Origin: an uncultured Gammaproteobacteria bacterium
GTDB taxonomy: Bacteria > Patescibacteriota > Microgenomatia > UBA1406 > HO2-37-13b
Length of the DNA: 64,000 nt
Reading direction: 5' to 3'
NCBI GenBank assembly: GCA_964612595.1
Contig: CAZTFB010000003.1
Span: 32,272-96,271, forward strand
The position numbers and the translations under genes were made by a program. How positions within the stretch are numbered: position 1 is the stretch's first letter; each line of letters starts with the position of its first letter. Positions 8,602 through 43,304 of this stretch are shown piece after piece. The notes beneath the pieces were generated by a model. It saw only the letters and a program-made list of their open reading frames with translations, did not search any database and had not been told where the DNA came from.

Positions 8602-8606
8602 CACAG

Positions 8607-8616: not shown

Positions 8617-8681
8617 TCCCATAGTATTGCATTTGCGCCTCAATTCTAGTATACTACTCCCCCACTGGGTAGGCACCAGAG

Positions 8682-9152: not shown

Positions 9153-9162
9153 TCAGAGCCTC

Positions 9163-9198
9163 GGACGGGCACATCGCCTACCCCCCGTCCGAGGCCAC
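9163..9198. terminator. GC-rich hairpin between convergent genes (putative bidirectional terminator)
   Basis: CCTCGGACGGG-12 nt loop-CCCGTCCGAGG, an 11-bp stem, followed by a T-rich run. Lies between the stop of the 8682..9152 ORF and the stop of the HD gene. Confidence 0.4.
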
Positions 9199-9199
9199 C

Positions 9200-9209
9200 T
9201 CTTTATTTA
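9200..9209. repeat. 10-bp direct repeat TCTTTATTTA (right copy)
   Basis: Identical to 8607-8616. Overlaps the stop codon of the HD gene. Confidence 0.4.
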
Positions 9210-9775
9210 CTGAAGAACTTCAAAGTAGTAAATAATGTATTGATTTCATCTAGCGTTTTTTGTGCAAATTCGTTATACACGTTACTTGTAGTTATTGCCT
9301 CCGCTCTTTTCGACTCGATAAGCTTTATGTACTCTTTCAATAGAGGAACAAAAAACTTTTGATACCAATCAACTCCATTATTTCGTATAACAAAATTACT
9401 TTTGCGTACATTGTCATAAATATCTGCTAATTTCACTATCATTGTGTACTCTCCTACACTGTACATGGGTTTTACTGCTTGCTTGATTGACCTATTATCA
9501 AAACTAATAGTCATTTCTTGCACAATAGTAAGTGTTCGTGGCGAAGAAAGTTTAAGAATATCCTTTTCAGTAGCTAATGTATCTTCGAGCAAATCATGAA
9601 AAAGCCCTGCTCTCCTAATGTCTTTTACTAATGATTGTTCGACATCATGAGCTGTAAGTACCACATTAAGACAAGCCCACACACGCATTGCATGATCAAA
9701 GATAAGCGTATTTGATCCGTCTGTAAGATCTCCCAACATCTCACGAGCATATTTTATTTGTAGTTCGTCCATCAT
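9203..9775 (-). CDS. HD-domain metal-dependent phosphohydrolase
   Basis: Ordered H...HD...D motifs (DHAMRV; LFHDLLED; KLADIYDN). Start overlaps the stop of the upstream NTase gene (ATGA), implying translational coupling. Confidence 0.7.
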   Translation of the reverse strand: MMDELQIKYAREMLGDLTDGSNTLIFDHAMRVWACLNVVLTAHDVEQSLVKDIRRAGLFHDLLEDTLATEKDILKLSSPRTLTIVQEMTISFDNRSIKQAVKPMYSVGEYTMIVKLADIYDNVRKSNFVIRNNGVDWYQKFFVPLLKEYIKLIESKRAEAITTSNVYNEFAQKTLDEINTLFTTLKFFSK

Positions 9776-17615: not shown

Positions 17616-17712
17616 TTCGCGATAAGACCGCAACCTCTCGAGGATCGTGGCAGACTTGAAAAATCATCTTCTTTTTAGTATAATACTATAGGTTGTTCTT
17701 AACACACAGCGA
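17616..17712 (+). promoter_or_regulatory. repeated promoter module, copy 2 (drives the LysM gene)
   Basis: Same 33-bp box, TTGAAA-17-TATAAT and ACTATAGGTTGTT as copy 1. ATG of the LysM gene at 17721. Confidence 0.5.
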
Positions 17713-17720
17713 GGTGAAGC

Positions 17721-18188
17721 ATGAGCGGTAAAATGAAAATCGCAACTGCTGTTGGGCTCTTCCTACTATGGGTTGGTGTGAGCAATAAGCTCCAACCAAT
17801 CAACTTTGGAGGCAGCTCGAACGAGGAGGTTGCGGTCAGCGGCTCGGTGGATACCAGCGCTTGCGCGGGGGTTCACTGGGTCAAGCCTGGCGAAACACTG
17901 AGCAACATTGCAGCGCGATACGGGCATACCGTCATCGCACTCGCACAGGCAAGCAACATCTCGAACCCGAACAAGATCAGTATCGGGGAGAAGGTCTGCC
18001 TGCCCAAGAGCCCAGCGCCAAAGGTCGCAGCCTCAAGCTGCAGCCAACAACATGTCGTCGCCGAAGGCGACACATTGGAGAAGATCGGCAGGCAGTACGG
18101 GACGACGGCTGGGGTGTTGGCGAGCAAGAATGGGCTCGCCAATCCGAATTACATCATACCCGGATGGAAGCTCTGTGTGAGCCCTTAG
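17721..18188 (+). CDS. secreted tandem-LysM peptidoglycan-binding protein
   Basis: N-terminal signal or anchor helix. Two LysM modules (HWVKPGETLSNIAARYGHTVIALAQAS...IGEKVCLP; HVVAEGDTLEKIGRQYGTTAGVLASKNGL...PGWKLCV). GC about 58%. Confidence 0.8.
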   Translation: MSGKMKIATAVGLFLLWVGVSNKLQPINFGGSSNEEVAVSGSVDTSACAGVHWVKPGETLSNIAARYGHTVIALAQASNISNPNKISIGEKVCLPKSPAPKVAASSCSQQHVVAEGDTLEKIGRQYGTTAGVLASKNGLANPNYIIPGWKLCVSP

Positions 18189-18216
18189 GGGCAAGCTCAG
18201 ACGAACAAAGACAATC

Positions 18217-18254
18217 GGTGACCTAGTCGCAACGTGCGTTGCGACTAGGTCACC
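18217..18254. repeat. perfect 38-nt palindrome (17-bp stem, 4-nt loop) after the LysM gene
   Basis: GGTGACCTAGTCGCAAC-GTGC-GTTGCGACTAGGTCACC. No downstream U-tract. Could be a terminator or a protein-binding site. Confidence 0.5.
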
Positions 18255-18281
18255 ACAGTACCTTGCAATAAAAAGGTTTGA

Positions 18282-18365
18282 GTGACAGTTTAATTCATGC
18301 AAAATATGGATTAGATTGCCGCCCAAAACGTTCACAGTCGGGGCGGTCCAGGAAAGGTATAGGAG
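18282..18365 (+). ncRNA. conserved leader element (copy B)
   Basis: GAGTGACAGTTTAATTCATGCAAAATATGGATTAGATTGCCGCCCAAAACGT, with CCGCCC/GGGCGG hairpin and RBS GGAAAGGTATAGGAG. Confidence 0.35.
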
Positions 18366-18512
18366 ATGGACATCTATTATATCGTCACGTATGTGACGAA
18401 GGATGGCGAGACCAAGACTCAGATTGTCAGCTCTGACAACCTCGAGTGGTTCAAGAGCTACGTCGCCTCACAGGGCGGCAGTGTCATTCATATTTCTTCT
18501 AAAATCTTTTAG
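18366..18512 (+). CDS. small hypothetical protein (48 aa) not in the ORF track
   Basis: ATG 7 nt after the RBS. Translation MDIYYIVTYVTKDGETKTQIVSSDNLEWFKSYVASQGGSVIHISSKIF. High GC. Confidence 0.35.
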   Translation: MDIYYIVTYVTKDGETKTQIVSSDNLEWFKSYVASQGGSVIHISSKIF

Positions 18513-18677
18513 TATACTCACCTATTTTGCCTCTGACCCCATAAAAACGGGATTTTGATTATATAGATGAAAATTTAAGAAGAAAAATGAAAATATATAC
18601 CGTACAGGTGCCAGCGGCCTAACCGCTGGCACCTGTCTCGGTACCTTCATTCGATAACACATCTCCTTTCTGGACCT

Positions 18678-19442
18678 CTAGGTCCATTTGCCGTTGCTAG
18701 CCCAGCTTGCCAGTGACTTTAACATCAGTGCATAGCCGGGACCAGCACTGATCCTCTTCTCTCTTGGCCGTTGCAAGCTTGTCGGCCACCACATTCCGCG
18801 ACGTGGTAGGAGAAGTCGTCTCTCTTTGTCTGAACCCCTCACCGTGAACTTCACCACGGTCAGATCCAGAACCATTTCCGACCAGACCACTCCCTCGAGG
18901 TCTACCTTTTCAGGCAGCTGTATGTCATCCAGCTCAATAACCCACATCTGCCCCGCCCGATCCCAGAACCATGAGGTGGAGTACACCAGACGCTTGCTGT
19001 CGGTGTGAATCTCAACTCTCAAGAACAGCAGCTCGATGAGGCTGATATGAGCTGCATGCCGAGCAGAGAGAGAGAACAAGCCCATCCAAGGCTTCGGGAG
19101 AACGATGACCGTGGGTCGAACATCCATGGCCATCTTCCCATCGCCCTCGTCACGCTCCCACAGATCTGTTCTGAACCTGAGCGGATTACCTCCCTCTTTG
19201 CGAGGAGTGGTGCGGTTCTGCTTTCTGGTCAAATGTGACCTCAGCCAGCCCGAAAGCCGGTAGATTGCCACCATAGGCCAGTCCAGCAGAGTTGTCTCAC
19301 TGGTGGGGGCGGCTTGCTGTGTGCTTGCCGCCCTCTCATCGGATGCAGGTTTTGAGCTCTGCAAGGACGCGATGAAGCTTCTCACCTGACCAGAAAGCCA
19401 GTAGACCAGCTCCATTGGGAGGTCAAGAATCTTGTCGATCAT
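18678..19442 (-). CDS. hypothetical protein (254 aa) in high-GC island, with an internal N-terminal repeat
   Basis: Two copies of a D(L/W)PMxxxYxLSGxxRS motif near the N-terminus. GC about 58%. No recognised domain. Confidence 0.45.
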   Translation of the reverse strand: MIDKILDLPMELVYWLSGQVRSFIASLQSSKPASDERAASTQQAAPTSETTLLDWPMVAIYRLSGWLRSHLTRKQNRTTPRKEGGNPLRFRTDLWERDEGDGKMAMDVRPTVIVLPKPWMGLFSLSARHAAHISLIELLFLRVEIHTDSKRLVYSTSWFWDRAGQMWVIELDDIQLPEKVDLEGVVWSEMVLDLTVVKFTVRGSDKERRLLLPRRGMWWPTSLQRPREKRISAGPGYALMLKSLASWASNGKWT

Positions 19443-19451
19443 ACTGACCTC

Positions 19452-20498
19452 CTACTGAATGTGGCTCAAGCCACGCCAGATCTGCGCCCAGCAGGTCGTT
19501 CCCTGCACGTTCATGAGCACTTCGACCCGAGGCACCTCGTTGGCCCTGTTGTTGCGGATGCTTCGCGGATCGAAGCGATGCTTAGTTCCGCTAGCAAGGA
19601 TCTTGCTCCCGTTATCCCAGACACACGGGATACCTGCAGGAGCATCGATCACAAGCCAACTCGTGAACACCGATGTTAGTGCATCAGGTCCATCGCCGGT
19701 CGAGACGACCGGCGCAGGCCCCGGCGCGGACGCCGGGGCCTGGCTCTGCTGATCAACCTGGATGAAGATGCCCTTCGGGTAGTGCCGGGGGCCAAGGTCA
19801 CCGGTTCCATCCAGTGCCTTGCCGTTCATGGCACCCAAACCCTTCACGGCAGCTTCGGTCAGGGTGATCTTGACGATGCCGTAGTCGCTGTTTTCCCTGT
19901 CATTGCAGGTCATCTGCCACTCCTGAGGGCCGAACCACGGATCATCGACCATGGCAAACGCACAGCGAACCCCGATCGGGATCTGGGCCGATGTCGCATC
20001 GCCATTCGTATGGTAGTGATTGCCTCTGAACCAATTCCCCCAGGCAACAACCGGCTTCTCGTACTCCTGATGGTACTTGATCGGCGTCGCCGTAGGGGCT
20101 GGTGTTGGCTTGATGATCTCGATGTTGGCACCGTCCTCGGTGTACGTATCGGACGCCGGCCCGCTGCTGTGAGAGTCGCCAGACGTGTCGCTTCTTTCCT
20201 GGATCTGGACCGAGTCGTTCACGGCCAAGATGTCGCCATCGAGGACGTTGTCCACTCCGTTGGAAAGAACGTCATCTACCTGAGCCCGCTCGGCTCCCTT
20301 GGCGAGGAACTTGAAGCCGAGGTCCGTCACCGGCCAGAAGCCGATGGTGATGCTGAAGAACATGATGAGCATGCCTCCGATCACCGTAAGCGCGTTCTCG
20401 ACCTTCAAGCCGTTCGTCTTGACGTCGCGGATGCCCGCGACAATCAGGAGCAGAGCGAGACCAAAGGCGATCAGTGCGTTCAGGACGCTGTTTTCCAT
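19452..20498 (-). CDS. membrane-anchored hypothetical protein (348 aa) in high-GC island
   Basis: Two N-terminal TM helices, a Ser/Thr/Pro-rich linker, and a C-terminal globular domain of unknown fold. Confidence 0.45.
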   Translation of the reverse strand: MENSVLNALIAFGLALLLIVAGIRDVKTNGLKVENALTVIGGMLIMFFSITIGFWPVTDLGFKFLAKGAERAQVDDVLSNGVDNVLDGDILAVNDSVQIQERSDTSGDSHSSGPASDTYTEDGANIEIIKPTPAPTATPIKYHQEYEKPVVAWGNWFRGNHYHTNGDATSAQIPIGVRCAFAMVDDPWFGPQEWQMTCNDRENSDYGIVKITLTEAAVKGLGAMNGKALDGTGDLGPRHYPKGIFIQVDQQSQAPASAPGPAPVVSTGDGPDALTSVFTSWLVIDAPAGIPCVWDNGSKILASGTKHRFDPRSIRNNRANEVPRVEVLMNVQGTTCWAQIWRGLSHIQ

Positions 20499-20513
20499 CT
20501 GAGTGACCTCCTG

Positions 20514-22997
20514 TCACTGTTGTGCCAGCCACCCGAGGGCGGCTAGCTGCGGATAGGTCTCCAGCATTGCCTTCCACGATTGGCAGTCGTAGCCGTTTGT
20601 GTTATTCGAAGACGTGCAGGAGTTATTTACGGGCCAGCGACGATCAAAGAACATCATCCCGACCCGATTGTTATCCGACACGCCATAGTGAGACTTAGTC
20701 TTCTGCAGACTCTCCCACTTGGCGGAAGCGCCTCCGAAGCCATCGTTGATCACAACGAATCGAAGGCCCGGGACTCCACCGAAGTCGGCATTGTTGCCTC
20801 CCATCGAATGGAACACGTCCCAGACCAACACTATACCCTCGCCCTTCAAGCCAGCCTTTTCTCGAGCTCTTGCAAACTCTTGAGCAACTTGCTTGACGTC
20901 AGCGAAAGTCAGCGCCGTGTTGTGCTCTTGGTCAACCACGATGCCATCCAATCCAAGTGGCGTTAGCTGAGTAATCCCCTTGCGAAGATCCTCGACCTTA
21001 CCACTCGTATCGAGCAGAACCATGGTGCCATTGGCATGAGCAGTTGGAATCAACTTCACGAAATGATTCATCGTGAAGCCAGAGTGTAGTACGGGTACGA
21101 CAACCGGAGTTGCCGACCTACTCGTTGCGCCTTCTACAGCGCTAGCCCAACTCCTCGCTGCCCCAACGATCTGGTCTTCGGAACAGGTATTCCCGAGCGT
21201 TCCTGGCCCACCGTTTGTACATGGCCACCCCCAGACAGGAGTGAAGAGGCCCGTTGCAGGTACCTCAAACGCGTACGACCGGCTGACACCAGTGAATTTC
21301 TCGAGAACCGAAGCGTCGAAGGTCACGTTACTGTAATTCCTCAGGAAGCGAAGAGCTCCCATTTCGTGCGTCCGGATGGACATGCCGAAGAGGAATGCCA
21401 GCATCATGATCTGGACGTAGTAAACCGCGAATTGAACCCAAAGCCCTTTCAGACTCCCATTCTCGCTCTTGATAAAGTACCGGATAATCAGCCCCATCGA
21501 ACGAAGGGGCACGATGATCACAGCACCCATCGCAAGCAAGATGGCAAGCAAAAGGAGCGTTGGACCGAGCGCTAGTGCATAGGTAAGTGACGGACCTGAC
21601 TGCATGGGATTATTGCCTTGGTAAGGCTCATCCCACGGCCAATCTTCCGTCGATCCGCGAAGGCGATATTCCATTAGCTCAGGATCGAAGTATGTATCGA
21701 CCCTTTCTTGCCTCTGGTTCGCATCGCGGATTTCAAAGTGGACATGCGACCAGCCTGTCATACCAGTCATTCCCACTCTGCCTAGCACAGTTGATTGATC
21801 CACTTCTTGACCCGTCTTTACCATGACGTATCCTTCCGGATCGCCACTGGAACCAGACGGAATCTTGAAAGATGGATCTCGCTCATCAACAAGGTGGGCA
21901 TACACAGTGGAACGGCCGTCTGGATGCTTTATCCACACCCAGCAGCCATAGTTACCGGCGTTATTACAGCCGGCGTATTCCACCTTGCCCGGGGCGGCAG
22001 CACGCACAGCAGCAAGCTGCACCGCGCTGAGATCCCACGCATTCACAGAACACCGACCGGTCTTCACCGGACCAATGATCGTGCACTGCGTGTGATCGTC
22101 TTCATCGGAGCTGATGGTATTGCTGGCAACCGGAAGGCGCCAGCCATCCTTACCCACAAGTCGTCCGTCCCTGAAACCGTCTACCAGCTCTGGTCGTTGC
22201 ACGATCAAATCGGGCTTGAACCAGTTAATGGGAAGACTGAACAGGAACTTCTGGGTTGCGAGGACAGGATGGTTGTAGACCTTCAGACGGTTCTCCACGT
22301 TGTTGTCAGAGACTAATAGCGATGTTTCGCTACACTCTGGCACATTGCATGGATCTCGTCTCCCATATTTTTCATGGGTAGCATAACCCATGTAATCTGC
22401 TCCGATCGACACAAAAGTCCAACCGGACAGATTCATGGGAGCCTTCGGATCATCCGCCTTTACAAAAACGCCTTTGTATCGTCTTGCAAAGTGAAGATGA
22501 GATCCACTAGTTCTACCGTACGCACAGTCAACACGACCGATCCGATCGCTCGCCTGCACCACTGTACCAACAGGTATGCGATCAGTATCGGACATGTGAT
22601 AGTACAGCAGCGACCACGAGTTGTTCGGGTCACCATCACCATCGAGGTCCACGATAACCTCTCCCTCTTTGGAGGTGGTAACCACTCCCGGGGCCGCGGC
22701 AAGAACCCATTCATGCGATATTTCACAGCCCCTTGAAATAGGGACTGCGAAGTCAACTGCAGCAAATTGGCCATCTTTGTAGCCAAGGTGCGGTCCTCCC
22801 GAGTAAATCCATTTCTCCTCAGAGGAGAATGGCAAAAGTAGAGGTGGTTGTTGAGGCGCACGTGCAAGATCGACCCACGTGGAATCCATATGGGTTGAGT
22901 TCTGCGCGTAAACGACATTTTGTTCTTTTGTATGTGCTGAAAGGACGAAAGCCATGATGGCCACCGTCCTCAGCATGCGAAACGCTGGGGTGGTCAT
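20514..22997 (-). CDS. multidomain cell-wall hydrolase with two M23 (LytM-type) metallopeptidase domains, mid-protein TM segments and an uncharacterised C-terminal domain
   Basis: Signal peptide. M23 signatures GRTSGSHLHFARRY and GMTGMTGWSHVHFEIRD. Hydrophobic helices around residues 470-540. 827 aa, GC about 60%. Confidence 0.7.
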   Translation of the reverse strand: MTTPAFRMLRTVAIMAFVLSAHTKEQNVVYAQNSTHMDSTWVDLARAPQQPPLLLPFSSEEKWIYSGGPHLGYKDGQFAAVDFAVPISRGCEISHEWVLAAAPGVVTTSKEGEVIVDLDGDGDPNNSWSLLYYHMSDTDRIPVGTVVQASDRIGRVDCAYGRTSGSHLHFARRYKGVFVKADDPKAPMNLSGWTFVSIGADYMGYATHEKYGRRDPCNVPECSETSLLVSDNNVENRLKVYNHPVLATQKFLFSLPINWFKPDLIVQRPELVDGFRDGRLVGKDGWRLPVASNTISSDEDDHTQCTIIGPVKTGRCSVNAWDLSAVQLAAVRAAAPGKVEYAGCNNAGNYGCWVWIKHPDGRSTVYAHLVDERDPSFKIPSGSSGDPEGYVMVKTGQEVDQSTVLGRVGMTGMTGWSHVHFEIRDANQRQERVDTYFDPELMEYRLRGSTEDWPWDEPYQGNNPMQSGPSLTYALALGPTLLLLAILLAMGAVIIVPLRSMGLIIRYFIKSENGSLKGLWVQFAVYYVQIMMLAFLFGMSIRTHEMGALRFLRNYSNVTFDASVLEKFTGVSRSYAFEVPATGLFTPVWGWPCTNGGPGTLGNTCSEDQIVGAARSWASAVEGATSRSATPVVVPVLHSGFTMNHFVKLIPTAHANGTMVLLDTSGKVEDLRKGITQLTPLGLDGIVVDQEHNTALTFADVKQVAQEFARAREKAGLKGEGIVLVWDVFHSMGGNNADFGGVPGLRFVVINDGFGGASAKWESLQKTKSHYGVSDNNRVGMMFFDRRWPVNNSCTSSNNTNGYDCQSWKAMLETYPQLAALGWLAQQ

Positions 22998-23158
22998 CGG
23001 CCTTGTCCTTTCGAAGGTACCGAGTTGTCAAAGTTCAAAACTGAGTCTTTTCAGACACAGTCCTCCCACACATTGCGGAAGGGAATATATTATACCACGA
23101 GACACAAAAAATAGACTTATAGCAATAAACTACAAGCTTTTTTAAAAAGATTTCGCAG

Positions 23159-24511: not shown

Positions 24512-25165
24512 CTATGCTTGTTGGGATAACACGATCACCTTTGTTTGTTCTTCAAAATCAGCTGGTGTTACAGTAAGCTTTTGCAGTGGCTCGTAGGTCG
24601 TGATGCCTAGTTTGCTGAGGAAATCTTCAAGTGGCGCCAGTTTTTCCATAATGTCTGAAGAGAAGGCGTCGTTTCTATAGTGCATTGGAATGACAATTGA
24701 GGGTTCTAACTTTTCGATGACCTGACGAGCTTCTTCTGCGTCGATGGTATAGAACCCACCCACAGGAATAAGAAGCACATCGACGCCATCGATCAATTCT
24801 ATAGTTTCTGCTGAAAGCGTATGACCAAGATCGCCACAATGAAGAACCGAAACATTTTCAGATTCTATTTTATACATAACGTTCCTACCTCGTTCTTCAC
24901 CCTTAGTCTTATCATGGTATGATTCAAATCCAGTAATGCGAATACCGCTTCGCTCGTATTCTCCAGGAAGATCAATGACCAGCGGGTCACCACCTACTTG
25001 CGAGTACGCATTATGATCATCATGATGATGAGAGAGCGTTACGACATCAGCATCAACTTTTGGGAACGCTTTGCCTAGCACCTTTGCATCGAAGGGGTCT
25101 AAAACGACAGATCCAGTTTTAGATTTGATTCTGAACGAAGAATGTCCGAAGTATGCAATTTCCAT
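24512..25165 (-). CDS. metallo-beta-lactamase-fold metal-dependent hydrolase (UPF0173-like)
   Basis: HxHxDH motif (LSHHHDDHNA) and downstream His/Asp ligands. 217 aa. Confidence 0.75.
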   Translation of the reverse strand: MEIAYFGHSSFRIKSKTGSVVLDPFDAKVLGKAFPKVDADVVTLSHHHDDHNAYSQVGGDPLVIDLPGEYERSGIRITGFESYHDKTKGEERGRNVMYKIESENVSVLHCGDLGHTLSAETIELIDGVDVLLIPVGGFYTIDAEEARQVIEKLEPSIVIPMHYRNDAFSSDIMEKLAPLEDFLSKLGITTYEPLQKLTVTPADFEEQTKVIVLSQQA

Positions 25166-25274
25166 AGTAGGTGTATGGTAGCAAAATACCGAGTCTATTT
25201 CAAGGACTGCTCAATACATGCTATAATGCTGGATCGTTCGACTTTGGCATTCACCCAGCAACAAAGGAGCTCGT

Positions 25275-25454
25275 ATGTCCGGCGGCAGCGTACATCACAT
25301 GAAACCGAGTTGTCAAGGAGGGACTGGTTGTCGCGGCAAAGGCACACACACATGTAAATGCGGCGACAAGGTCTGCAGGGATCACTGGGTCAAGGAGTGC
25401 GGCACGTGGATGTGCACGAGTTGTCGCACCAAAAGGCGGCGCGGCCACATGTGA
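25275..25454 (+). CDS. small Cys-rich basic peptide (59 aa, 8 Cys) in a ~250-bp high-GC insert
   Basis: TATAAT at about 25234, RBS AAAGGAG, ATG at 25275. Translation MSGGSVHHMKPSCQGGTGCRGKGTHTCKCGDKVCRDHWVKECGTWMCTSCRTKRRRGHM. Followed by a 9-bp GC hairpin at 25480-25512. Confidence 0.4.
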   Translation: MSGGSVHHMKPSCQGGTGCRGKGTHTCKCGDKVCRDHWVKECGTWMCTSCRTKRRRGHM

Positions 25455-25541
25455 CATTCCTCACTAGCTGAGTCGAATCAGCGACCCCTCGGCCTGGCGT
25501 CGGGGGGTCGCTACCTTACCTTAAAGACCCTATAGGAAGTC

Positions 25542-26585
25542 GTGTACAATACTGGCATGAAATATCCCCTACTCGTATCTAACCCAGCAAACATTTTTTA
25601 CCTTACGGGGGTGCACATTGAAGCCCGCGATGCGTGGGTTTTGCTTACTGAGAAAGAAACTCACTTCTTTACCGATGCTCGATATAGTGACGTGCTCGCA
25701 AGTATGAAAAGCCCCATCATTCCTCATGAAATTTCTGCATCTAGTCCGCTTTCAACACAGATCCAACAGCTACTCGCCGATTTGAACAAAGACTACATAT
25801 ATTTTGAAGCTGATAATCTGACCGTTTTAGAACTAGCTACGTTAAAAAAGAAAGTTCCTCTCACTTTTAAGTCGACAAACGGAATTATGACTAAACAACG
25901 AGAAGTTAAAACTCCTCAAGAAATCACAAAAATTAAAAAGGCATGCAACACAATTGACGCGTGTTTGTTTGATATAAAAAAACTTATCCGCCCGGGCTTA
26001 ACTGAATATGAGATTGCATATAAGCTTGATTCATGGCTTCGCGAAAAGGGGTATGAAAGCGCCTTCCCACCAATCATCGCCGTAAACGAACATGCAGCAA
26101 TCCCCCACTTCAATACCCAAAAGCATGGCACCAACAAAATTACTGAAAACAGCATTATTCTCATTGATGCTGGCGCGAAAGTTGATGGATATTGTTCAGA
26201 TATTTCTCGTATGTTTATTGTGGGAAAACCATCAACAACCTTTTTGAATATTTATAAGAAAATGCTTTACGTTCAGGAAAAAACTATTGCCAAATTAAGC
26301 ACAAGTAAAACATATAGTGAGGTTGATCTCTTTTGTCGCGGTGAATGTGAGAATCACAACATAGTCCCCCACCGACATGCGACAGGTCATGGAATCGGCA
26401 TAGACGTCCACGAGAAACCATACGTTAGTTTCACTTCGAAGGATGCTATAAAATCAGGTCAAGTTGTAACCATTGAGCCGGGAACCTATGTCGAAGGACA
26501 ATATGGCATTCGCATCGAAGATACTGTTTTACTAAACCCGGCTAGACTGCCAATAGTACTTACAAAATATCCAAAGGCGCTTTAG
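25542..26585 (+). CDS. pepP: Xaa-Pro aminopeptidase / M24-family metallopeptidase
   Basis: M24 pita-bread signatures (DAGAKVDGYCSDISR; HGIGIDVHEKP; TIEPG). 347 aa. Confidence 0.85.
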   Translation: MYNTGMKYPLLVSNPANIFYLTGVHIEARDAWVLLTEKETHFFTDARYSDVLASMKSPIIPHEISASSPLSTQIQQLLADLNKDYIYFEADNLTVLELATLKKKVPLTFKSTNGIMTKQREVKTPQEITKIKKACNTIDACLFDIKKLIRPGLTEYEIAYKLDSWLREKGYESAFPPIIAVNEHAAIPHFNTQKHGTNKITENSIILIDAGAKVDGYCSDISRMFIVGKPSTTFLNIYKKMLYVQEKTIAKLSTSKTYSEVDLFCRGECENHNIVPHRHATGHGIGIDVHEKPYVSFTSKDAIKSGQVVTIEPGTYVEGQYGIRIEDTVLLNPARLPIVLTKYPKAL

Positions 26586-26908: not shown

Positions 26909-29713
26909 TTAGCTCGTTTCTGCGCTTTCTTCTGCAAGTTTCTTTTGAATCTCACTAATTTTTGGGTCTGACTGTGCTGGTTGCTCATCCTTGTTTATTT
27001 CCTCGTCAATCTTCAATTCTTGTTGTAGTGTTTGTTCCTTTGCTGCCTCCGCTTGTTTTGGCATATCAATATCAACAAACTCTTCTTCAGATGTAACTTT
27101 ATTGCGAATTTCTTCTTCTTTCTGTATGTCGCGCTGAACTTGCTTAGCAGCCTCGACTTTGGCTTTGAGATAGACGAGAAGCTCCTCGCCCGATAGATTG
27201 TTAATCATAAATATGGGGAGAATAAACCCTACCTCGTCAAGACCTTGCTCCTGTAGCTTAATGTCTGAAGACATAATCTTGTTCAAAAGATTGCTGATCT
27301 TTATGACATCTTGCTCAACCCATTCGCTTCGCGAGGTAATATTTTCAGTAACTGGAATTTCGCCGTTTTCATACTGCTCAATCCACATCTTTTTAACTTC
27401 CTCATAATCCTCAATCGAAACTTTCTTTGAGGTTGGAATATGCTGCTCAATATGTTTTTCAGGTGCTGTCGCAACTTCGAGTTGGGCTTTTGCAACATTC
27501 TTAACGGTATCTTGTTCGACTTTCTCTTGTTGTGCAACTTCGCTTGTTACCGATTGGTCAGTCTTGACAATCACCGCTGTTTTAGAGATGACAAGCTTCA
27601 CCTGCTCCTCTTTCAATCCGGTTGCTTCTGCTGTTTTTTTGACGAGCTCGACTGTCGGGCCGTCAATCAAGTCAGGTGTACTAATGGTTTGAAGCACCTG
27701 CTGGGTTTTTGCCGGCGTAAGGTGGGTTTCTTGAGAAATGGTCTGCACAAAGCGTTGATTTACCGCAATGTTACTGAAAATTCTGCTGACAATATCACGC
27801 GTCTTTTCTTTTGGAATACTAAATTTAATGGCGATATTTTGGATGACCGGCACCATCTTTGGCATTGACTGTAAAATACGCTGCTTTGCAGCTTGTTGTT
27901 GCGCGACCGACTTTGAGGTAACTGAGGCTAAATTCTTTGCATCTTGATCACCTTTTATCGCACGACTTTGAATTTCGTCGCGCATATTCATTAGCTTCTG
28001 GCGCTCTGTTGGGGTCTCGGCCTTGAAAGGATTCTGTATCTTGTCGAGATTTCTGCGAGCTTCCTGATTCTCTGTTTTGTTTGTTTCGAGGCGCGCAATT
28101 TCTGTTAGATTAGACGCTTTCATATTCATCGATTGGACAATTGTTTCTGTACGCGCCATACGAATATCCTGTACCGTATCAAGATTAACTCTGGCCTTAA
28201 TCTCAACATCCTTAGGCAGCTTTAGTGCTAGGCCAGCAGTACCTGTTGGTCCTGCTACCGGTCCTGGCGTTGGTCCCTGTCCGGGAGGATTGCGCAGCGT
28301 GTCATACATCGATAAAAGAATATTCTTCATCGCGTATATGCCGTCACAACAGTAATCTCTGAATATGCGAAGGAGCCACCACGGCAATATTAGCACAGTC
28401 CATAACATAATCAATGCAATGACATATTCGGCAAATGTGTCGACATAGTTTGAGGTATTCCAGATGCCTAATGTTTGTGCAGGTCCTCCATATAGAATAT
28501 TGATAGAAGTTGGGTATACGGCTTGCGACATCTGATGGGTGCGAGAAAAATCAAAGACATACGGAATATGCGAGGGAGAATTCCAAATTTTTGCAAGCGA
28601 ACCAAGAAATAAGGCAAATAGCGGACCGTAAAAAACCCACTGGAAAAATACTCCGACCCAAATCCAACCAATGTTGCGAATAAACACCCAAGGGGCAAGA
28701 ATCGCTAAAAATGGCGATACAATAAGTAAGAACCAAAGAACGATCTTGCGCAGAATCATCATAATACCCAGGAAATAGTAGGTCATATTGGTAAACTTGA
28801 CCATAAATTTTGAGGTACGAACCATCTCAAAATTTTCTGCGTTCCAGTTTGTACAACCAATAAATTGTCGATACGCCTGCTCGCTCACCTTTGTCACATC
28901 CCCCTTAGTAAAATCGACAAAGAAAATGTTGAAGAGTTCACGGACACCAAGAGTGCGAATGAAGAATTCCATAACAATATCCGAGAGTTTAATAATAAGA
29001 AGAACAATCTGTGCAGAAAAGAGTACAAAAATTATCAATACCGCAAGTCGTATAACAAGAGGAGTGACTTCTATACCTAGATTGAAGTTGTTGCGCTGAC
29101 TTATGATGATGCCTAGGCCCATGATAATGGCGATGATTAAAATAAAGAATAGTGCAACATTTTGGGATAGCTTCCATACCTCGAGAATAGTTGGATGATC
29201 ATCTATTGAAGGTCTTGTAAGAACCCACAGCAAGAATTGACGAGATCGCTCCCCACCTTTGCCTAATGCTGTTATTTCTGGGTCTTCAACCCAAAAATTT
29301 CTGTTTTTATCGGCAAGCCATTCAGAGTAACTTTTTGCACAGCTTGCTGAATATTGTTCAGATTCTTTTTTACAGCGATCTTCAAGGAGTTTTTTCTGAT
29401 CTGCCGGCAAGGCAGGATCAATAATACATGCTGCGGCAAGGTTCGGACAATACGAACCTTGCCGCGCGCTTGAGGGCTTATCTCCCTGTCCGCTCGCACA
29501 TGGTTCTGGTTCAACAAATTGAGAAGGATCTGACAATGGTGTTCCCGGCTGTGGATAGTATTGAGCAGCTACAAAAGGCGCAAAAATAGACAGAAAAACA
29601 CTTGCCATCACAGCAACAACCAATATGATACGCGCCGACTTTTTCATGAATACTTTCATCATAAAGATAAGTCCCGACCTTTTCAAGACCTGGTCTTCTT
29701 GTATAATATCCAT
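26909..29713 (-). CDS. large polytopic membrane protein with Pro-rich linker and long coiled-coil C-terminal region, possibly VirB6/TrbL-like
   Basis: Signal/anchor (MKKSARIILVVAVMASVFLSIFAPFVAA), about 7 TM helices, a PPGQGPTPGPVAGPTG linker, then an about 430-aa K/E/Q-rich tail. The true start is probably an internal Met near 29650, because the listed start abuts the divergent spoU ATG with zero spacing. Confidence 0.5.
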   Translation of the reverse strand: MDIIQEDQVLKRSGLIFMMKVFMKKSARIILVVAVMASVFLSIFAPFVAAQYYPQPGTPLSDPSQFVEPEPCASGQGDKPSSARQGSYCPNLAAACIIDPALPADQKKLLEDRCKKESEQYSASCAKSYSEWLADKNRNFWVEDPEITALGKGGERSRQFLLWVLTRPSIDDHPTILEVWKLSQNVALFFILIIAIIMGLGIIISQRNNFNLGIEVTPLVIRLAVLIIFVLFSAQIVLLIIKLSDIVMEFFIRTLGVRELFNIFFVDFTKGDVTKVSEQAYRQFIGCTNWNAENFEMVRTSKFMVKFTNMTYYFLGIMMILRKIVLWFLLIVSPFLAILAPWVFIRNIGWIWVGVFFQWVFYGPLFALFLGSLAKIWNSPSHIPYVFDFSRTHQMSQAVYPTSINILYGGPAQTLGIWNTSNYVDTFAEYVIALIMLWTVLILPWWLLRIFRDYCCDGIYAMKNILLSMYDTLRNPPGQGPTPGPVAGPTGTAGLALKLPKDVEIKARVNLDTVQDIRMARTETIVQSMNMKASNLTEIARLETNKTENQEARRNLDKIQNPFKAETPTERQKLMNMRDEIQSRAIKGDQDAKNLASVTSKSVAQQQAAKQRILQSMPKMVPVIQNIAIKFSIPKEKTRDIVSRIFSNIAVNQRFVQTISQETHLTPAKTQQVLQTISTPDLIDGPTVELVKKTAEATGLKEEQVKLVISKTAVIVKTDQSVTSEVAQQEKVEQDTVKNVAKAQLEVATAPEKHIEQHIPTSKKVSIEDYEEVKKMWIEQYENGEIPVTENITSRSEWVEQDVIKISNLLNKIMSSDIKLQEQGLDEVGFILPIFMINNLSGEELLVYLKAKVEAAKQVQRDIQKEEEIRNKVTSEEEFVDIDMPKQAEAAKEQTLQQELKIDEEINKDEQPAQSDPKISEIQKKLAEESAETS

Positions 29714-41002: not shown

Positions 41003-41262
41003 CTATCGTGGATTGGAGCACCATTATCTATTTACATAATGTTCCAATCTACAATGGGGGGCCTAGGAGCTAGAGGCTGCGGGCAGGCAGCTTTGGCTGT
41101 TAGGCCTCCCATTGAATCGATAACTCAGGCCGCGGGCGCGAACGCCCGCTGCGGACAGCAATGTTCCGCTGCGGTGCATACCGCGTCTGAGGCCATTCAA
41201 CCATCCACACACATCTCGTTTTAGCTCGAAAGAGCAGTCCGCTTAAGGAGGCGGAGAAAGTC

Positions 41263-41481
41263 ATGGACAGTGTTTTCGGTCGGTTCCTGCTCAAGCAGGC
41301 GGCGGCGGCGGTGCTCGGTTTCATCAGCACCATCGTCGTACTCGGTGTGATCCTCTTCATCCAGAACAACTACATGGGCGGCGTCTTGAACGCCGGTGTG
41401 TTCTTGTTCATCGGATGGGGGGTCAGCTGGAACTGGTGGTTCTCCACCATCTGCTTCTTCATGGACCACAGCGACAGCTAA
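41263..41481 (+). CDS. small two-TM membrane protein (72 aa), high GC
   Basis: RBS AAGGAGG upstream. Two hydrophobic helices. Confidence 0.4.
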   Translation: MDSVFGRFLLKQAAAAVLGFISTIVVLGVILFIQNNYMGGVLNAGVFLFIGWGVSWNWWFSTICFFMDHSDS

Positions 41482-41512
41482 CCTACGCAAACGAACTAAG
41501 GAGAAACAGCAC

Positions 41513-43150
41513 ATGAACGCGAAGCTCATCAAGTTCTTGCTCATCGCCGTCCTGGCGGTGAGCACCATGGTCCTCACGGGTTGCACCGCTTTCGGCGGAC
41601 CGAATTCCGGGAAGCCGGCTTCGGAGATGACCGTCAGCGAGGCGCTCGGGCTCGGCAACGCCCAGGCCTCCGAGGCCGTGACCGGAACGCAGCAAGTGGC
41701 AGTCGTCGGCGAGACGATCGACGCGGCGCAGTACGCCGCGGACGTCCAGCGCACCATCGATGAGGTGGCGGGGCTCGAGGCGGCGATCCGCAACGAGGGC
41801 TATACGTGGGCTGACGACGTGAAGACCTGCAGTGGCAACACGCAGGAGAAGCACGTCTGCGCCAACACGGCCCTTGCGAAGATCAAGAAGGCCTTCCCCG
41901 ACCTGGTCGTCGGCAGCGGTGGCAATACCGCGGTCGCGAACCAGGCGCAGGTCGCAATCGGTGCGTTGAGCCAGGCGAATAGATGGGCAACGTCCGTTTG
42001 GATCTGTCTGAAGCCCGGTGAGACATTGACCGGCCCCTCCCTCAGCGGCAAGACGATCACCGTAGGCTACCCCAAGGGCGCGAAGCTCATCAAGGTAGCC
42101 ACCGGCGAGATCGTGAACCTCGAGGAATGTGGGTCGGTCTGTCACCCGAACGAGGACGCCAACGGCAAGCCGACGTCCAACGCCGAGTGCCACATCTACA
42201 ACGTCGTTGTTCCCCCGCCTGGCGGTGGTGGCAGCGGTGGAAGTGGCGGTGCAGGCGGACAAGGCGGAGCCGGAGGCGCAGGTGGTGCTGGCGGAGCCGG
42301 AGGCGCAGGTGGTGCTGGCGGAGCCGGAGGCGCAGGTGGTCGGGGTGGCGAAGTTCCCCCGCCGTTCTGGTGCTTCTGGTGCCCGCCGCCGTGCACGACG
42401 TGTCCGACGCCGGTGCCGCCGACGAACACGCCGATCGTCATCAACGACGGCTGCGTCGTCGGTTGCGGCCTGCACTGGAACTCCCCTCAGGAGGCCAGGG
42501 CTTACGGCTGCAACGGGCCGTTCGTGATCGGCAGCTGCCCCACGGCGACGCCGACGTTGGTTCCGACATGCGTCCCCGGATGCGTGGTCACGGTCGAGCC
42601 GACGGCGACGAACACGCCGAGGGGGCCGGTCGATACGGCGACCCCGCCGCCGACGTTCATTCCGCCGACGGCGACGCCAACGGCTACGGCGACGGTGGCG
42701 GCGTGTACCTTCGAGTGGTACGCGGTCTGCGCGAACAGCGCGGTCTGCCCGAGGGGGAACGTTATCCCCAAGGGCGAGGCCGTGCTCATCCAGGTGATCA
42801 ACCGTGACGACACGGCGAAGGTCACCCGGGTTTGGCTCCGGGTTCAGCAGGTCAACCCTGACAAGGTGGACACGCAGGACCTGGTAACGCCTGGGGGGTA
42901 CCAACAGACCGACGGTTGGATCTTCAAGTGCCCGCAAGGCGCGCTCGATGCGGTGACCCCCGACATTCCGTCGTTCCTCGCAGCTCAGCTGCGGAGTCAG
43001 TGGAACGTCATCACCTCCGGGCGGGCCGGGTACGATAAGGTCGTACCGACCGGTTCCGGATGGACCGTGCGCGTCTGCCACGCGTACGAAGACGGCCGAG
43101 GATGGCAGCCGGTTCCCGGCTTCAATCCGGCCGTAGGCTGCGGCGAGTAA
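41513..43150 (+). CDS. lipoprotein with Gly/Ala tandem repeats and a Pro/Thr/Cys-rich region (545 aa), high GC
   Basis: RBS AAGGAGA. Lipobox LTGC after the signal helix. (GAGGAGGAG)n tract, then PPPFWCFWCPPPCTTCPTPVPPT and further C-rich modules. GC about 65%. Confidence 0.6.
   Translation: MNAKLIKFLLIAVLAVSTMVLTGCTAFGGPNSGKPASEMTVSEALGLGNAQASEAVTGTQQVAVVGETIDAAQYAADVQRTIDEVAGLEAAIRNEGYTWADDVKTCSGNTQEKHVCANTALAKIKKAFPDLVVGSGGNTAVANQAQVAIGALSQANRWATSVWICLKPGETLTGPSLSGKTITVGYPKGAKLIKVATGEIVNLEECGSVCHPNEDANGKPTSNAECHIYNVVVPPPGGGGSGGSGGAGGQGGAGGAGGAGGAGGAGGAGGAGGAGGRGGEVPPPFWCFWCPPPCTTCPTPVPPTNTPIVINDGCVVGCGLHWNSPQEARAYGCNGPFVIGSCPTATPTLVPTCVPGCVVTVEPTATNTPRGPVDTATPPPTFIPPTATPTATATVAACTFEWYAVCANSAVCPRGNVIPKGEAVLIQVINRDDTAKVTRVWLRVQQVNPDKVDTQDLVTPGGYQQTDGWIFKCPQGALDAVTPDIPSFLAAQLRSQWNVITSGRAGYDKVVPTGSGWTVRVCHAYEDGRGWQPVPGFNPAVGCGE
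42266..42340 (+). repeat. 27-bp tandem repeat (about 2.8 copies) encoding the Gly-Ala tract
   Basis: GGAGCCGGAGGCGCAGGTGGTGCTGGC repeated head-to-tail inside the lipoprotein gene. Confidence 0.7.
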
Positions 43151-43168
43151 CCGCAGCCGAACGAGTTT

Positions 43169-43216: not shown

Positions 43217-43304
43217 ACAGAACAAGCTCAAGGAATTACGTAGCCAATTGCTGGTTACCGTAGGTTCTTGCTGACTTAACTGTATAAGCATAGGTTCCTG
43301 AACC

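What the first reader, a model, noticed from the sequence alone, without database searches (positions are those of the whole stretch)
25166..25541. About 250-bp high-GC insert encoding a promoter-, RBS- and terminator-equipped 59-aa peptide with 8 cysteines
The peptide MSGGSVHHMKPSCQGGTGCRGKGTHTCKCGDKVCRDHWVKECGTWMCTSCRTKRRRGHM is basic and Gly/Cys-rich. It has its own TATAAT box, a strong SD and a GC hairpin. It is inserted between an MBL-fold hydrolase gene and pepP, and its composition is foreign to the backbone. Candidates are a zinc-ribbon or metal-binding micro-protein, an antimicrobial peptide or RiPP-like product, or a small regulatory protein. The 11-mers TATAATGCTGG (25234) and TACAATACTGG (25529) at the two flanks may be degenerate direct repeats.
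Basis: seen in the sequence. Interest (0 to 1): 0.55.

Follow-up and report, generated by a model that had tools for sequence, protein, structure and literature searches.

The report
Orphan zinc-finger microprotein gene insert
A roughly 300-bp GC-rich insertion between two housekeeping genes of an uncultured Microgenomates (CPR) bacterium carries a real, selected gene for a 59-residue basic Cys/His-rich protein that most likely binds zinc; it has no relatives in public data and no known function, so it is a well-supported orphan gene, not a new kind of system.

Summary
Window 25275-25454(+) encodes the stated 59-aa, 8-Cys peptide in a GC-rich (0.55-0.63 vs ~0.42) stretch between an MBL-fold hydrolase gene and pepP. 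Five relatives with the same gene order have only 51-115 bp there. One relative (L007, 90% MBL identity) has a diverged copy, so the insert was gained once in a small clade. Window and L007 differ at 88/177 ORF bases, yet 7/8 Cys are kept (neutral simulation P=1.5e-5), 28/59 residues are identical (never reached in 200,000 simulations), an indel is in frame, and one position swaps His for Cys, which suggests a metal ligand. The antisense 68-aa ORF that public gene callers annotate is not conserved. Rfam and folding give no support for an RNA gene. No homolog was found in any protein or DNA collection searched. Weak hits (E 0.02-0.7) all point to RING-type two-zinc fingers, but none reaches threshold and AF2 was uninformative. 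The hairpin lacks a U-tract and is absent from L007. The two "11-mer repeats" are -10 promoter boxes. The ORF shares high GC3 and a Shine-Dalgarno site with the window's other high-GC genes (5/5, vs 0/33 backbone genes). Verdict: real orphan zinc-binding microprotein gene of moderate interest.

The parts
25231..25526 (+). Body of the lineage-specific GC-rich insert (5'UTR, ORF, 3' region)
   Evidence: It is absent from five syntenic relatives (gaps 51-115 bp). DNA identity to L007 falls from 0.88 (25166-25232) to 0.48-0.57 inside, then returns to 0.86 (25521-25556).
25219..25227 (+). Extended -10 promoter-like box TGcTATAAT for the small ORF. It sits where the pepP -10 box sits in relatives without the insert.
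   Evidence: It is conserved in L007 (GTGCTATAATGC). L010, which lacks the insert, has TATAAT at a similar distance from the conserved CAAGGACTGC block. No good -35 was found, and the scan did not call it. Function is inferred.
25263..25269 (+). Shine-Dalgarno sequence AAAGGAG, 5 nt upstream of the ATG
   Evidence: L007 has GAAAGGAA before a GTG at the homologous start. An SD is present in 5/5 high-GC3 genes and 0/33 backbone genes of the window.
25275..25454 (+). 59-aa ORF (stop included): basic (pI 9.6, net +9) Cys/His-rich microprotein. Conserved candidate ligands are H8, C13, C19, H25, C27, C29, C34, H37 (Cys in L007), C47 and C50.
   Evidence: It is 47% identical to the L007 copy, against 25-42% in the other frames. 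Differences by codon position are 24/26/38. pN is 0.42 and pS 0.80. There is an in-frame 6-nt indel. P(>=7/8 Cys kept) = 1.5e-5.
25480..25512 (+). GC-rich hairpin (14-bp stem, 5-nt loop) 26 nt after the stop codon; no U-tract
   Evidence: -28.1 kcal/mol, z = -3.3. The SNP 25489 T>C in L001 and L016 turns a U.G pair into C-G. It is absent from L007 and was not called as a terminator.
25545..25550 (+). -10 box TACAAT of pepP, ending 6 nt before the pepP ATG (25557), which implies a leaderless pepP mRNA
   Evidence: Relatives without the insert have TAYAAT/TATAAT 5-6 nt before the pepP ATG. The same layout is common among backbone genes.
25251..25457 (-). Antisense 68-aa ORF that public gene callers annotate here; judged spurious
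   Evidence: It was called in L001, L005 and L016. Between window and L007 this frame is 27% identical, has pN/pS above 1, and has a stop in L007 within the aligned stretch. Its SD-like GAGGA abuts the ATG with no spacer.

Best explanation
The insert is a small, self-contained gene. It was gained once in the common ancestor of the window lineage and its sister lineage L007, between the divergent leaderless promoters of pepP and the MBL-hydrolase gene.

Proposed mechanism:
1. It is transcribed from an extended -10 promoter (TGcTATAAT) that sits where the ancestral pepP promoter sat (inferred).
2. It is translated from a Shine-Dalgarno site (inferred from sequence; conserved in L007).
3. It yields a cytoplasmic, strongly basic microprotein of about 6.5 kDa.
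4. The fold is held together by metal, most likely two Zn2+, bound by eight conserved Cys/His ligands. Selection on these residues is shown; zinc binding is inferred.
5. The most likely arrangement is a RING-like cross-braced (binuclear treble-clef) finger. Ligands 3-8 follow the CNOT4/RNF4 pattern C-x-C-x4-C-x2-[C/H]-x9-C-x2-C. The first ligand pair is atypical (C-x5-C or H-x4-C). This is weakly supported.
6. Only the scaffold is conserved. The surface residues evolve quickly and the C-terminal tail is Arg/Lys-rich. The protein therefore probably works by binding a partner, either a nucleic acid or a protein, and not as an enzyme (inferred; the partner is unknown).
7. pepP keeps its own leaderless promoter downstream of the insert. 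In the window lineage, the 3' hairpin probably stabilises or ends the small transcript (inferred).
For: Coding and selection:
- Homologous copies in the window and L007 differ at 88/177 bases. Even so, the frame is open in both, an indel is in frame, and differences peak at codon position 3 (24/26/38).
- In a neutral simulation at the same divergence, the mean number of Cys kept was 1.3 of 8, P(>=7) = 1.5e-5, and 28 identical residues was never reached in 2e5 runs (maximum 22).
- tblastn of the L007 peptide against the window gives E = 8e-15.
- No other frame behaves like coding sequence.

Gain of the insert:
- Window and L007 form a clade. L008, L010, L012, L014 and the outgroup L017 lack the insert.
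- Flanking genes have pS 0.59-0.79, so the insert's divergence fits vertical descent.

Metal ligands, not disulfides:
- Window H37 aligns with Cys in L007, while window C42 is Gly in L007.
- There is no signal peptide or TM segment, and GRAVY is -0.93.

RING-like fold:
- Pfam zf-RING_4 E 0.26, covering profile positions 3-45 of 48.
- The two-sequence profile against PDB gives CNOT4 RING (E 0.23) and TRIM31 RING as top hits.
- hhalign against the CNOT4 RING gives 87% probability.
- The L007 peptide alone hits only RING domains. The RNF4 alignment spans the whole domain at E 0.48. It also hits NCBIfam RING_SCO0854 at E 0.022.

Not an RNA:
- Rfam finds nothing.
- Fold z-scores are -1.66 and -0.59.

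Expression signals:
- TGcTATAAT and an SD are conserved in L007.
- The SD places the ORF in a gene class: 5/5 high-GC3 genes against 0/33 backbone genes.
Against: - No expression, translation or metal-binding data exist.
- Only two diverged lineages are available, so all conservation rests on one pairwise comparison plus near-identical strains.
- Overall constraint is weak (pN/pS about 0.52, against 0.025-0.21 for the neighbours). Two of three within-species SNPs in the ORF are nonsynonymous (G16R, R54K).
- The stop codon and the hairpin are not conserved. The L007 ORF reads on for about 94 codons, to a TGA that overlaps the pepP ATG.
- Every RING-type hit is below threshold. Cys-rich queries tend to hit Cys-rich families, and RINGs are the commonest of those. 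The window peptide's own best PDB alignments (CBL, FYVE) use a different register.
- The first ligand pair does not have the C-x2-C spacing of RINGs.
- The AF2 single-sequence model has pLDDT 57, and Foldseek found nothing.
- The promoter has no recognisable -35 and was not called by the scan.
Confidence: 0.62

Rival explanations
1. The GC-rich segment is a structured non-coding RNA, or a cis-regulatory leader or attenuator of pepP, and the ORF is incidental.
For: GC-rich islands in AT-rich genomes are often RNA genes. The segment lies directly upstream of pepP and co-directional with it. It contains a very stable hairpin, and a within-species SNP strengthens a stem pair.
Against: There is no Rfam match at gathering or permissive thresholds. 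Whole-element folding is no better than shuffles (z = -1.66 and -0.59). The hairpin is absent from L007. Conservation follows codons and Cys/His residues, not pairing. pepP keeps its own -10 box 6 nt before the ATG.
Confidence: 0.05
2. The real gene is the antisense 68-aa ORF (25251-25457, minus strand), as public gene callers annotate it.
For: It was called as a gene in several assemblies and is in protein databases (P0125-P0127). An antisense ORF is also open in L007 (76 aa).
Against: Between window and L007 this frame is 27% identical with pN/pS above 1, and it has a stop in L007 within the aligned block. No family matches it. Its SD-like GAGGA has no spacer to the ATG. Open antisense frames are expected opposite GC-rich coding sequence.
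Confidence: 0.03
3. It is a secreted, disulfide-rich antimicrobial or toxin peptide, or a RiPP precursor.
For: The peptide is small, cationic, and rich in Cys and Gly. It evolves fast outside the Cys scaffold (pN 0.42), as conflict-related peptides do.
Against: It has no signal peptide, leader motif or TM segment (sequence). There are no modification, export or immunity genes; the insert holds this ORF only, between DnaB/MBL and pepP. The His-for-Cys swap at position 37 and the loss of C42 in L007 do not fit fixed disulfide partners. PADLOC and PHROGs give nothing.
Confidence: 0.07
4. It is a translated but functionless or decaying proto-gene: a leftover of a foreign fragment whose apparent conservation only reflects its recent origin.
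For: It is an orphan in every database searched. Its pN/pS is high and its C-terminus unstable. Nonsynonymous polymorphisms occur within the species.
Against: Synonymous sites are saturated (pS 0.80). Even so, the frame, the start with its SD, 7/8 Cys and the HMKPSC and HTC.CG..VC motifs survive. That is incompatible with neutral drift (P < 1e-5).
Confidence: 0.12
5. The insert is a miniature mobile element that duplicated its target, and the two 11-mers (TATAATGCTGG and TACAATACTGG) are the target-site duplication.
For: The two 11-mers match 9/11 at the two edges of the insert. The insert sits exactly between a -10 box and the pepP start. Its composition is foreign.
Against: In L007 the edges match only 6/11, and that match is essentially the -10 hexamer. 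There are no terminal inverted repeats. There is no second copy in the window or in any collection. No transposase is present. -10 boxes are expected at both places for functional reasons.
Confidence: 0.08

Closest known systems
C4C4 / RING-HC RING fingers of the CNOT4 and RNF4 type (Pfam zf-RING_4 PF14570; PDB 1ur6, 1e4u, 2xeu)
   Same: Both have eight Cys/His ligands in about 40 residues. Ligands 3-8 share the spacing and flanking residues: C-x-C-G-x-x-[IV]-C-x-x-[CH]-W ... C-x-x-C-R. These are the top weak hits in three libraries and for both diverged copies.
   Different: All scores are far below family thresholds (11.6 bits against a cut-off of 27). The first ligand pair is C-x5-C (or H-x4-C), not C-x2-C. 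Loop 1 is only 7-9 residues. The protein is a stand-alone 59-aa bacterial protein with no E2/ubiquitin system in sight. The fold is not confirmed.
Prokaryotic RING-like binuclear treble-clef domains (Burroughs, Iyer and Aravind 2011, as summarised in PMC4506424; NCBIfam NF041916 RING_SCO0854)
   Same: This is a bacterial protein with a putative two-zinc RING-like scaffold. The L007 copy gives a weak hit to RING_SCO0854 (E 0.022).
   Different: The known prokaryotic examples are domains of large multidomain proteins, or are linked to ubiquitin-like conjugation or membrane-protein quality-control genes. Here the domain is the whole protein, the neighbours are unrelated housekeeping genes, and the hit scores 12.9 bits against a cut-off of 600.
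Haloarchaeal one-domain zinc-finger micro-proteins (C(P)XCG proteins of Haloferax volcanii, PMC11241148, PMC10716476; Brz of Halobacterium, PMC2253796)
   Same: These are proteins under 70 aa that consist of little more than a Cys-knuckle zinc site. They are often missed by annotation. Brz is likewise encoded in an intergenic region just upstream of, and co-directional with, the gene it regulates.
   Different: There is no sequence similarity. The C(P)XCG knuckle motif is absent (the knuckles here are C-x2-[CH]-W and C-x2-C-R, plus C-x-C-G). Eight to ten candidate ligands suggest two metals, not one. The organism is a bacterium (CPR), not an archaeon.
Phage 'morons' (PMC3594210): independent transcription units of deviant composition inserted between two conserved genes
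   Same: The layout matches: a single small ORF with its own promoter-like box, an RBS and a 3' hairpin, with deviant GC content, inserted precisely between two genes that are adjacent in relatives.
   Different: The setting is a chromosomal housekeeping neighbourhood (DnaB, MBL hydrolase, pepP), not a phage or prophage. The hairpin is not a canonical terminator. There are no phage homologs.

Membership tests
RING finger / RING-like binuclear treble clef | Eight conserved Cys/His metal ligands within about 40-60 residues | tested here: met
   C13, C19, C27, C29, C34, H/C37, C47 and C50 are conserved between the window and L007, as are H8 and H25. Conservation is significant.
RING finger / RING-like binuclear treble clef | Canonical spacing C-x2-C-x(9-39)-C-x(1-3)-H/C-x(2-4)-C-x2-C-x(4-48)-C-x2-C | tested here: inconclusive
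   Ligands 3-8 fit (C-x-C-x4-C-x2-[CH]-x9-C-x2-C, as in CNOT4). The first pair is C-x5-C (or H8-x4-C13), and loop 1 is 7-9 residues.
RING finger / RING-like binuclear treble clef | Significant match to a family profile (Pfam gathering score, or E below 1e-3) | tested here: not met
   zf-RING_4 scores 11.6 bits against a cut-off of 27 (E 0.26). The best PDB E-values are 0.23-0.7. RING_SCO0854 scores 12.9 bits against a cut-off of 600. The hhalign result of 87% is a single chosen pair.
RING finger / RING-like binuclear treble clef | Cross-brace ligation of two zinc ions on a beta-beta-alpha core | tested here: inconclusive
   The AF2 single-sequence model has pLDDT 57 and Foldseek found no match. 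An experimental structure is needed.
RING finger / RING-like binuclear treble clef | Functional link to E2 or ubiquitin-like conjugation components | tested here: not met
   The neighbours are DnaB, an MBL hydrolase, pepP, a membrane protein and an M23 peptidase. No Ub-system genes appear in the loci examined.
C(P)XCG zinc-finger micro-proteins (haloarchaea) | Two C(P)XCG knuckles in a protein under 70 aa | tested here: not met
   The size fits (59 aa). The knuckles, however, are CRDH-W / CSKC-W and CTSC-R / CVIC-R. The only C..CG-like motif is C27-K-C29-G30, which is C-x-C-G.
Intrinsic (Rho-independent) terminator | GC-rich stem-loop immediately followed by a U-tract | tested here: not met
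   The stem is present (-28.1 kcal/mol). It is followed by ACCUUACCUUAAAG, the scan did not call it, and it is absent from L007.
Phage moron | Autonomous promoter-ORF-terminator unit of deviant composition located in a phage or prophage genome | tested here: not met
   The layout and composition fit. The surroundings are conserved chromosomal housekeeping genes, and no phage relative exists.
RiPP precursor / bacteriocin | Leader peptide plus adjacent modification, export or immunity genes | tested here: not met
   The insert contains only the ORF. The flanking genes are the same as in relatives that lack the insert.
Known structured RNA family (Rfam) | Covariance-model match at the gathering score | tested here: not met
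   Nothing at gathering score. The only permissive hit is BSnc120, at 16.5 bits against a gathering score of 114.

The most novel reading that the evidence does not exclude
The peptide is the smallest stand-alone RING-like (two-zinc, cross-braced) protein known in bacteria, and a founding member of a new fast-evolving family in CPR/Patescibacteria. In this reading it belongs to a distinct 'high-GC, Shine-Dalgarno-led' gene set: secreted LysM and M23 wall hydrolases, unknown surface proteins, and this microprotein. The otherwise SD-less, leaderless genome would maintain that set for interaction with its host cell. The microprotein would then act as an effector or regulator of the episymbiotic interaction, not as a housekeeping factor.
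Probability: 0.08. Interest if true: 0.75.

Novelty: new member of a known kind. Interest (0 to 1): 0.4.

Why it matters
- **Annotation:** this is a clean, statistically supported example of a real small gene that automatic annotation gets wrong. Public records carry the antisense ORF instead, so the true protein is missing from protein databases.
- **Dated gene gain:** the insertion point and polarity are resolved, in a CPR bacterium, a group where orphan genes dominate and functions are mostly unknown.
- **Structure:** if the RING-like two-zinc fold is confirmed, it would add a minimal stand-alone bacterial representative of that fold.
- **Translation signals:** the side observation may matter more. 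Only the high-GC genes of this genome use Shine-Dalgarno sites (5/5, against 0/33 backbone genes). That points to two translation-initiation regimes in one small genome and gives a simple handle for finding acquired or specially regulated genes in such organisms.

Tried and rejected
- **Known RNA gene (tmRNA, RNase P, SRP, 6S, riboswitch):** Rfam at gathering and permissive thresholds, ARAGORN, and folding of both strands gave nothing.
- **Protein homologs:** the word-indexed search of 5.8 billion clusters found nothing with the peptide or with the two-sequence alignment. Exhaustive HMMER over 1.84 billion representatives gave two hits, both repeat-driven artefacts: an intimin-like Big-domain array and a GSTGCSG..HTITM..NKTCTA repeat protein.
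- **DNA-level searches:**
  - The search for related loci in GTDB genomes, JGI metagenomes and IMG/VR found no relative.
  - A degenerate pattern for H-T-C-x-C-G-x-x-[IV]-C-x-x-[CH]-W found none in genomes or metagenomes.
  - The same pattern gave one viral match, which lies out of frame inside a 1035-aa ORF and is therefore chance.
  - Phage tblastn and plasmid blastn found no match.
- **Family libraries:** PHROGs and PADLOC gave nothing.
- **Paralogs in the window:** none.
- **Structure prediction:**
  - The single-sequence model had pLDDT 57.
  - Foldseek on the weak model was uninformative.
- **L009's apparently larger gap:** this was only a 1-nt difference in gene calling, not an insert.
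- **Cassette-swap idea:** I considered whether different alleles had been exchanged at one site. I dropped this once the flanking genes' pS (0.59-0.79) showed that neutral sites are saturated anyway.
- **Short repeats shared with pepP:** ACCCAGCAA and CACATGAAA occur in both the insert and pepP. They are in the wrong order for a duplication, and their number is about what chance predicts.
Full report
**1. Checking the observation**

- The ORF at 25275-25454(+) gives exactly the quoted 59-aa peptide, with 8 Cys.
- GC reaches 0.55-0.63 between about 25250 and 25520, against 0.36-0.48 around it.
- The neighbours are an MBL-fold hydrolase (24512-25165, minus strand; PF13483, E 2e-51) and an M24 Xaa-Pro aminopeptidase, pepP (PF00557, E 2e-54). 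DnaB lies beyond the hydrolase.
- TGcTATAAT is at 25219-25227. AAAGGAG is at 25263-25269, 5 nt before the ATG.
- A 14-bp GC hairpin lies at 25480-25512 (-28.1 kcal/mol, z = -3.3).
- Four corrections apply:
  - The 11-mers sit at 25222-25232 and 25545-25555.
  - The second Cys gap is x7, not x6.
  - The hairpin has no U-tract, and the terminator scan did not call it.
  - The insert is about 296 bp, not 250.

**2. Is it an RNA gene?**

A GC island in an AT-rich genome suggested a structured RNA, so I tested that first.
- Rfam finds only two distant tRNAs at gathering thresholds. Run permissively on the region, it finds only a meaningless 16.5-bit hit.
- ARAGORN finds no tmRNA.
- Neither strand folds significantly better than shuffles (z = -1.66 and -0.59).
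- The RNA hypothesis has no support.

**3. Is it an insertion, and when did it arrive?**

- The MBL protein is found unchanged on contigs from several independent samples (L001-L006, later L016). These are 99.4-100% identical to the window, so the arrangement is not an assembly artefact.
- MBL homologs identify the organism as a Microgenomates-type CPR bacterium (Roizmanbacteria/Woesebacteria-like names).
- Loci with 80-82% MBL orthologs (L008, L010, L012, L014) and a 69% ortholog (L017) keep the order membrane protein - pepP - MBL - DnaB (L017's contig ends soon after MBL); the four 80-82% loci extend on to the M23 peptidase. Their pepP-MBL gap is only 51-115 bp.
- Only L007 (90% MBL identity) has a long gap (385 bp) with a homologous insert.
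- In an MBL+dnaB tree, the window and L007 are sisters and the insert-free lineages lie outside them. The insert was therefore gained once in their common ancestor.
- In the insert-free relatives, a TAYAAT box sits 5-6 nt before the pepP ATG, which implies a leaderless mRNA. In the window this box is retained at 25545-25550. The TATAAT at 25222 occupies the position that the pepP -10 box has in L010.
In L007 they match only 6/11, so a target-site duplication is not supported.

**4. Is the ORF a gene?**

- Window and L007 are 0.82-0.88 identical in the adjacent genes and promoter blocks, but only 0.48-0.57 identical inside the insert.
- This does not need special explanation. Synonymous sites of the flanking genes are themselves near saturation (pS 0.59-0.79).
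- Against that background, the sense frame stands out on several counts:
  - It is open in both genomes.
  - It starts at the same place, behind an SD (ATG in the window, GTG in L007).
  - It carries an in-frame 6-nt indel.
  - It is 47% identical at the protein level, against 25-42% in the other frames.
  - Its differences by codon position are 24/26/38, with pN 0.42 against pS 0.80.
- I simulated 200,000 neutral descendants with the same number of substitutions:
  - The mean number of Cys retained was 1.3 of 8.
  - P(>=7 retained) = 1.5e-5.
  - The observed 28 identical residues was never reached (mean 12, maximum 22).
- The antisense 68-aa ORF, which gene callers annotate in public assemblies, is 27% identical with pN/pS above 1. 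It is an artefact of GC-rich coding sequence on the other strand.
- Within-species SNPs are too few to add anything: R54K, G16R, and a synonymous change at Cys34.

**5. What kind of protein is it?**

- It is 6.5 kDa, with pI 9.6, net charge +9 and GRAVY -0.93. It has no signal peptide or TM segment, and it has an Arg/Lys-rich C-terminus.
- Conserved residues are H8-M-K-P-S-C13, C19, H25-T-C27-x-C29-G, V33-C34, W38-V, M46-C47-x-x-C50-R-T.
- Window H37 is Cys in L007, and window C42 is Gly in L007. A His/Cys exchange at a conserved position suggests a metal ligand and is hard to reconcile with a disulfide partner.
- Eight to ten candidate ligands suggest two zinc ions.
- No family reaches significance, but the weak hits agree:

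| Query | Library | Best hits |
|---|---|---|
| Window peptide | Pfam | zf-RING_4, E 0.26, nearly full length |
| Two-sequence profile | PDB | CNOT4 RING E 0.23; TRIM31 RING E 0.68 |
| Two-sequence profile | hhalign vs CNOT4 RING | 87% probability |
| L007 peptide | NCBIfam | RING_SCO0854, E 0.022 |
| L007 peptide | PDB | only RING domains; RNF4 aligned over residues 11-57 |
| Window peptide | PDB | CBL RINGs and a FYVE finger, in a register that uses the non-conserved C42 |

- The shared motif is C-x-C-G-x-x-[IV]-C-x-x-[CH]-W...C-x-x-C-R.
- The first ligand pair (C-x5-C or H-x4-C) is not RING-like.
- AF2 without an alignment gave pLDDT 57, and Foldseek found nothing.
- My estimates are about 0.75 for zinc binding and about 0.45 for a RING-like cross-brace.

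**6. Origin**

- No relative exists in any of the following:
  - 5.8 billion protein clusters.
  - 1.84 billion HMMER-scanned representatives, where the two hits are repeat artefacts.
  - GTDB genomes, JGI metagenomes or IMG/VR. One further viral match was a chance, out-of-frame hit.
  - Phage or plasmid records.
  - PHROGs or PADLOC.
  - Elsewhere in the window.
- One caveat: because gene callers pick the antisense ORF, protein databases would under-represent this family.
- The ORF is compositionally distinct. Its GC3 is 0.68 in the window and 0.64 in L007, against 0.27-0.49 for backbone genes.
- It has an SD. In the window, 5/5 high-GC3 genes have an SD: LysM, two unknown proteins, M23, and this ORF. 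None of 33 backbone genes has one (Fisher p = 2e-6).
- The syntenic M23 gene keeps both its high GC3 and its GAAAGGA SD in most of the diverged relatives (L007, L010 and L014; AAAGGAG in L008). This class is therefore maintained and is not a fading trace of recent transfer.
- Horizontal acquisition from a GC-rich, SD-using donor is the simplest origin, but no donor was found. The layout resembles a phage 'moron' (PMC3594210) in a non-phage setting.

**7. Mechanism proposed**

- Shown: the gene is a selected coding sequence that was gained once.
- Inferred, step by step:
  - Transcription starts at TGcTATAAT, giving a 5'UTR of about 40 nt.
  - Translation is SD-dependent.
  - The protein folds around two Zn ions.
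  - It acts by binding a partner through its variable surface and basic tail.
- The hairpin is specific to the window lineage and probably stabilises or ends the transcript. In L007 the ORF instead runs on to a TGA overlapping the pepP ATG.
- The closest functional analogies are one-domain zinc-finger micro-proteins such as the Haloferax C(P)XCG proteins and Brz. Brz is also encoded just upstream of its target gene (PMC11241148, PMC10716476, PMC2253796). This ORF does not carry their motif, so it is not a member of that family.

**8. Verdict**

The antimicrobial/RiPP reading and the direct-repeat idea are not supported. It is a new orphan member of a familiar kind. Interest is moderate at 0.4. 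It would rise if the RING-like fold, or a role in host interaction, were shown.

Noticed in passing
whole window; e.g. genes starting at 14011, 15810, 25557, 35571, 36727, 40668(-) and 47920, versus 17721, 19442(-), 20498(-), 22997(-) and 25275: The window has two gene classes. 0/33 backbone genes (GC3 0.27-0.49) have a Shine-Dalgarno motif, and at least 8 of them have a TATAAT-like box ending 3-14 nt before the start codon (leaderless or short-leader). 5/5 high-GC3 genes (0.57-0.76) have a classic SD (Fisher p = 2e-6). The M23 gene keeps its SD and high GC3 in most of the diverged relatives.
   Followed up: partly
window 17700-23100: A 5.4-kb high-GC island (0.51-0.62). It encodes a LysM protein (17721-18188), two proteins with no Pfam match (18678-19442 and 19452-20498, minus strand), and an 827-aa M23 peptidase (20514-22997, minus strand). 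The M23 gene is syntenic next to dnaB in all relatives examined.
   Followed up: partly
window 41100-43300: A very GC-rich island (0.58-0.71) in a 0.40 GC background. It has long overlapping ORFs on both strands. The plus-strand 584-aa ORF (41396-43150) has a (GGA)n-encoded Gly-Ala run and Pro/Thr/Cys-rich segments, and no Pfam match. Its origin and true frame were not determined.
   Followed up: no
window 8650-9300: Another short high-GC patch (0.55), just downstream of tRNA-Leu(CAA) at 8520-8602. It has overlapping ORFs of 106-160 aa on both strands and no Pfam match for the 156-aa ORF. A tRNA-adjacent position could indicate an integration site.
   Followed up: no
window 25251-25457 (-); proteins P0125-P0127: Public gene calls, and hence protein databases, carry the non-conserved antisense 68-aa ORF in place of the true 59-aa gene (76 aa in L007). 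This is a misannotation that hides the family from protein searches.
   Followed up: yes
window 25166-25210 and relatives: The block GTAGGTGTATGGTAGCAAAA next to the MBL start is invariant in all relatives. On the minus strand it holds a TTGAAA-17-TACCAT promoter-like site whose -10 ends 9 nt before the MBL ATG. MBL and pepP thus appear to be driven by back-to-back short-leader or leaderless promoters within 51-115 bp.
   Followed up: partly
L007 2616-2900 (minus orientation): In L007 the small ORF has no stop at the window's position. It reads on for about 94 codons to a TGA that overlaps the pepP ATG (ATGA), and the GC hairpin is missing. The gene's 3' end was therefore remodelled after the two lineages split.
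   Followed up: partly
window 25306-25433: Short internal DNA repeats inside the ORF: CGAGTTGTC twice (111 nt apart), GTCAAGGAG twice (77 nt apart, in different frames), and GTTGTCGC(G/A)(G/C)CAAA twice (93 nt apart). This is slightly more than the roughly 0.6 exact 9-mer repeats expected by chance in 551 nt. It may hint at how the Cys-knuckle sequence arose.
   Followed up: no
window 25557-26585 versus L007: pepP evolves much faster than its neighbours between the window and L007: 71% aa identity and pN 0.168, against 90% and 0.05 for MBL and 98% and 0.015 for DnaB.
   Followed up: no
window 26909-29713 (-): A 934-aa multi-pass membrane protein with a long charged C-terminal region and no Pfam match. 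It is conserved in synteny next to pepP in all relatives (891-939 aa).
   Followed up: no
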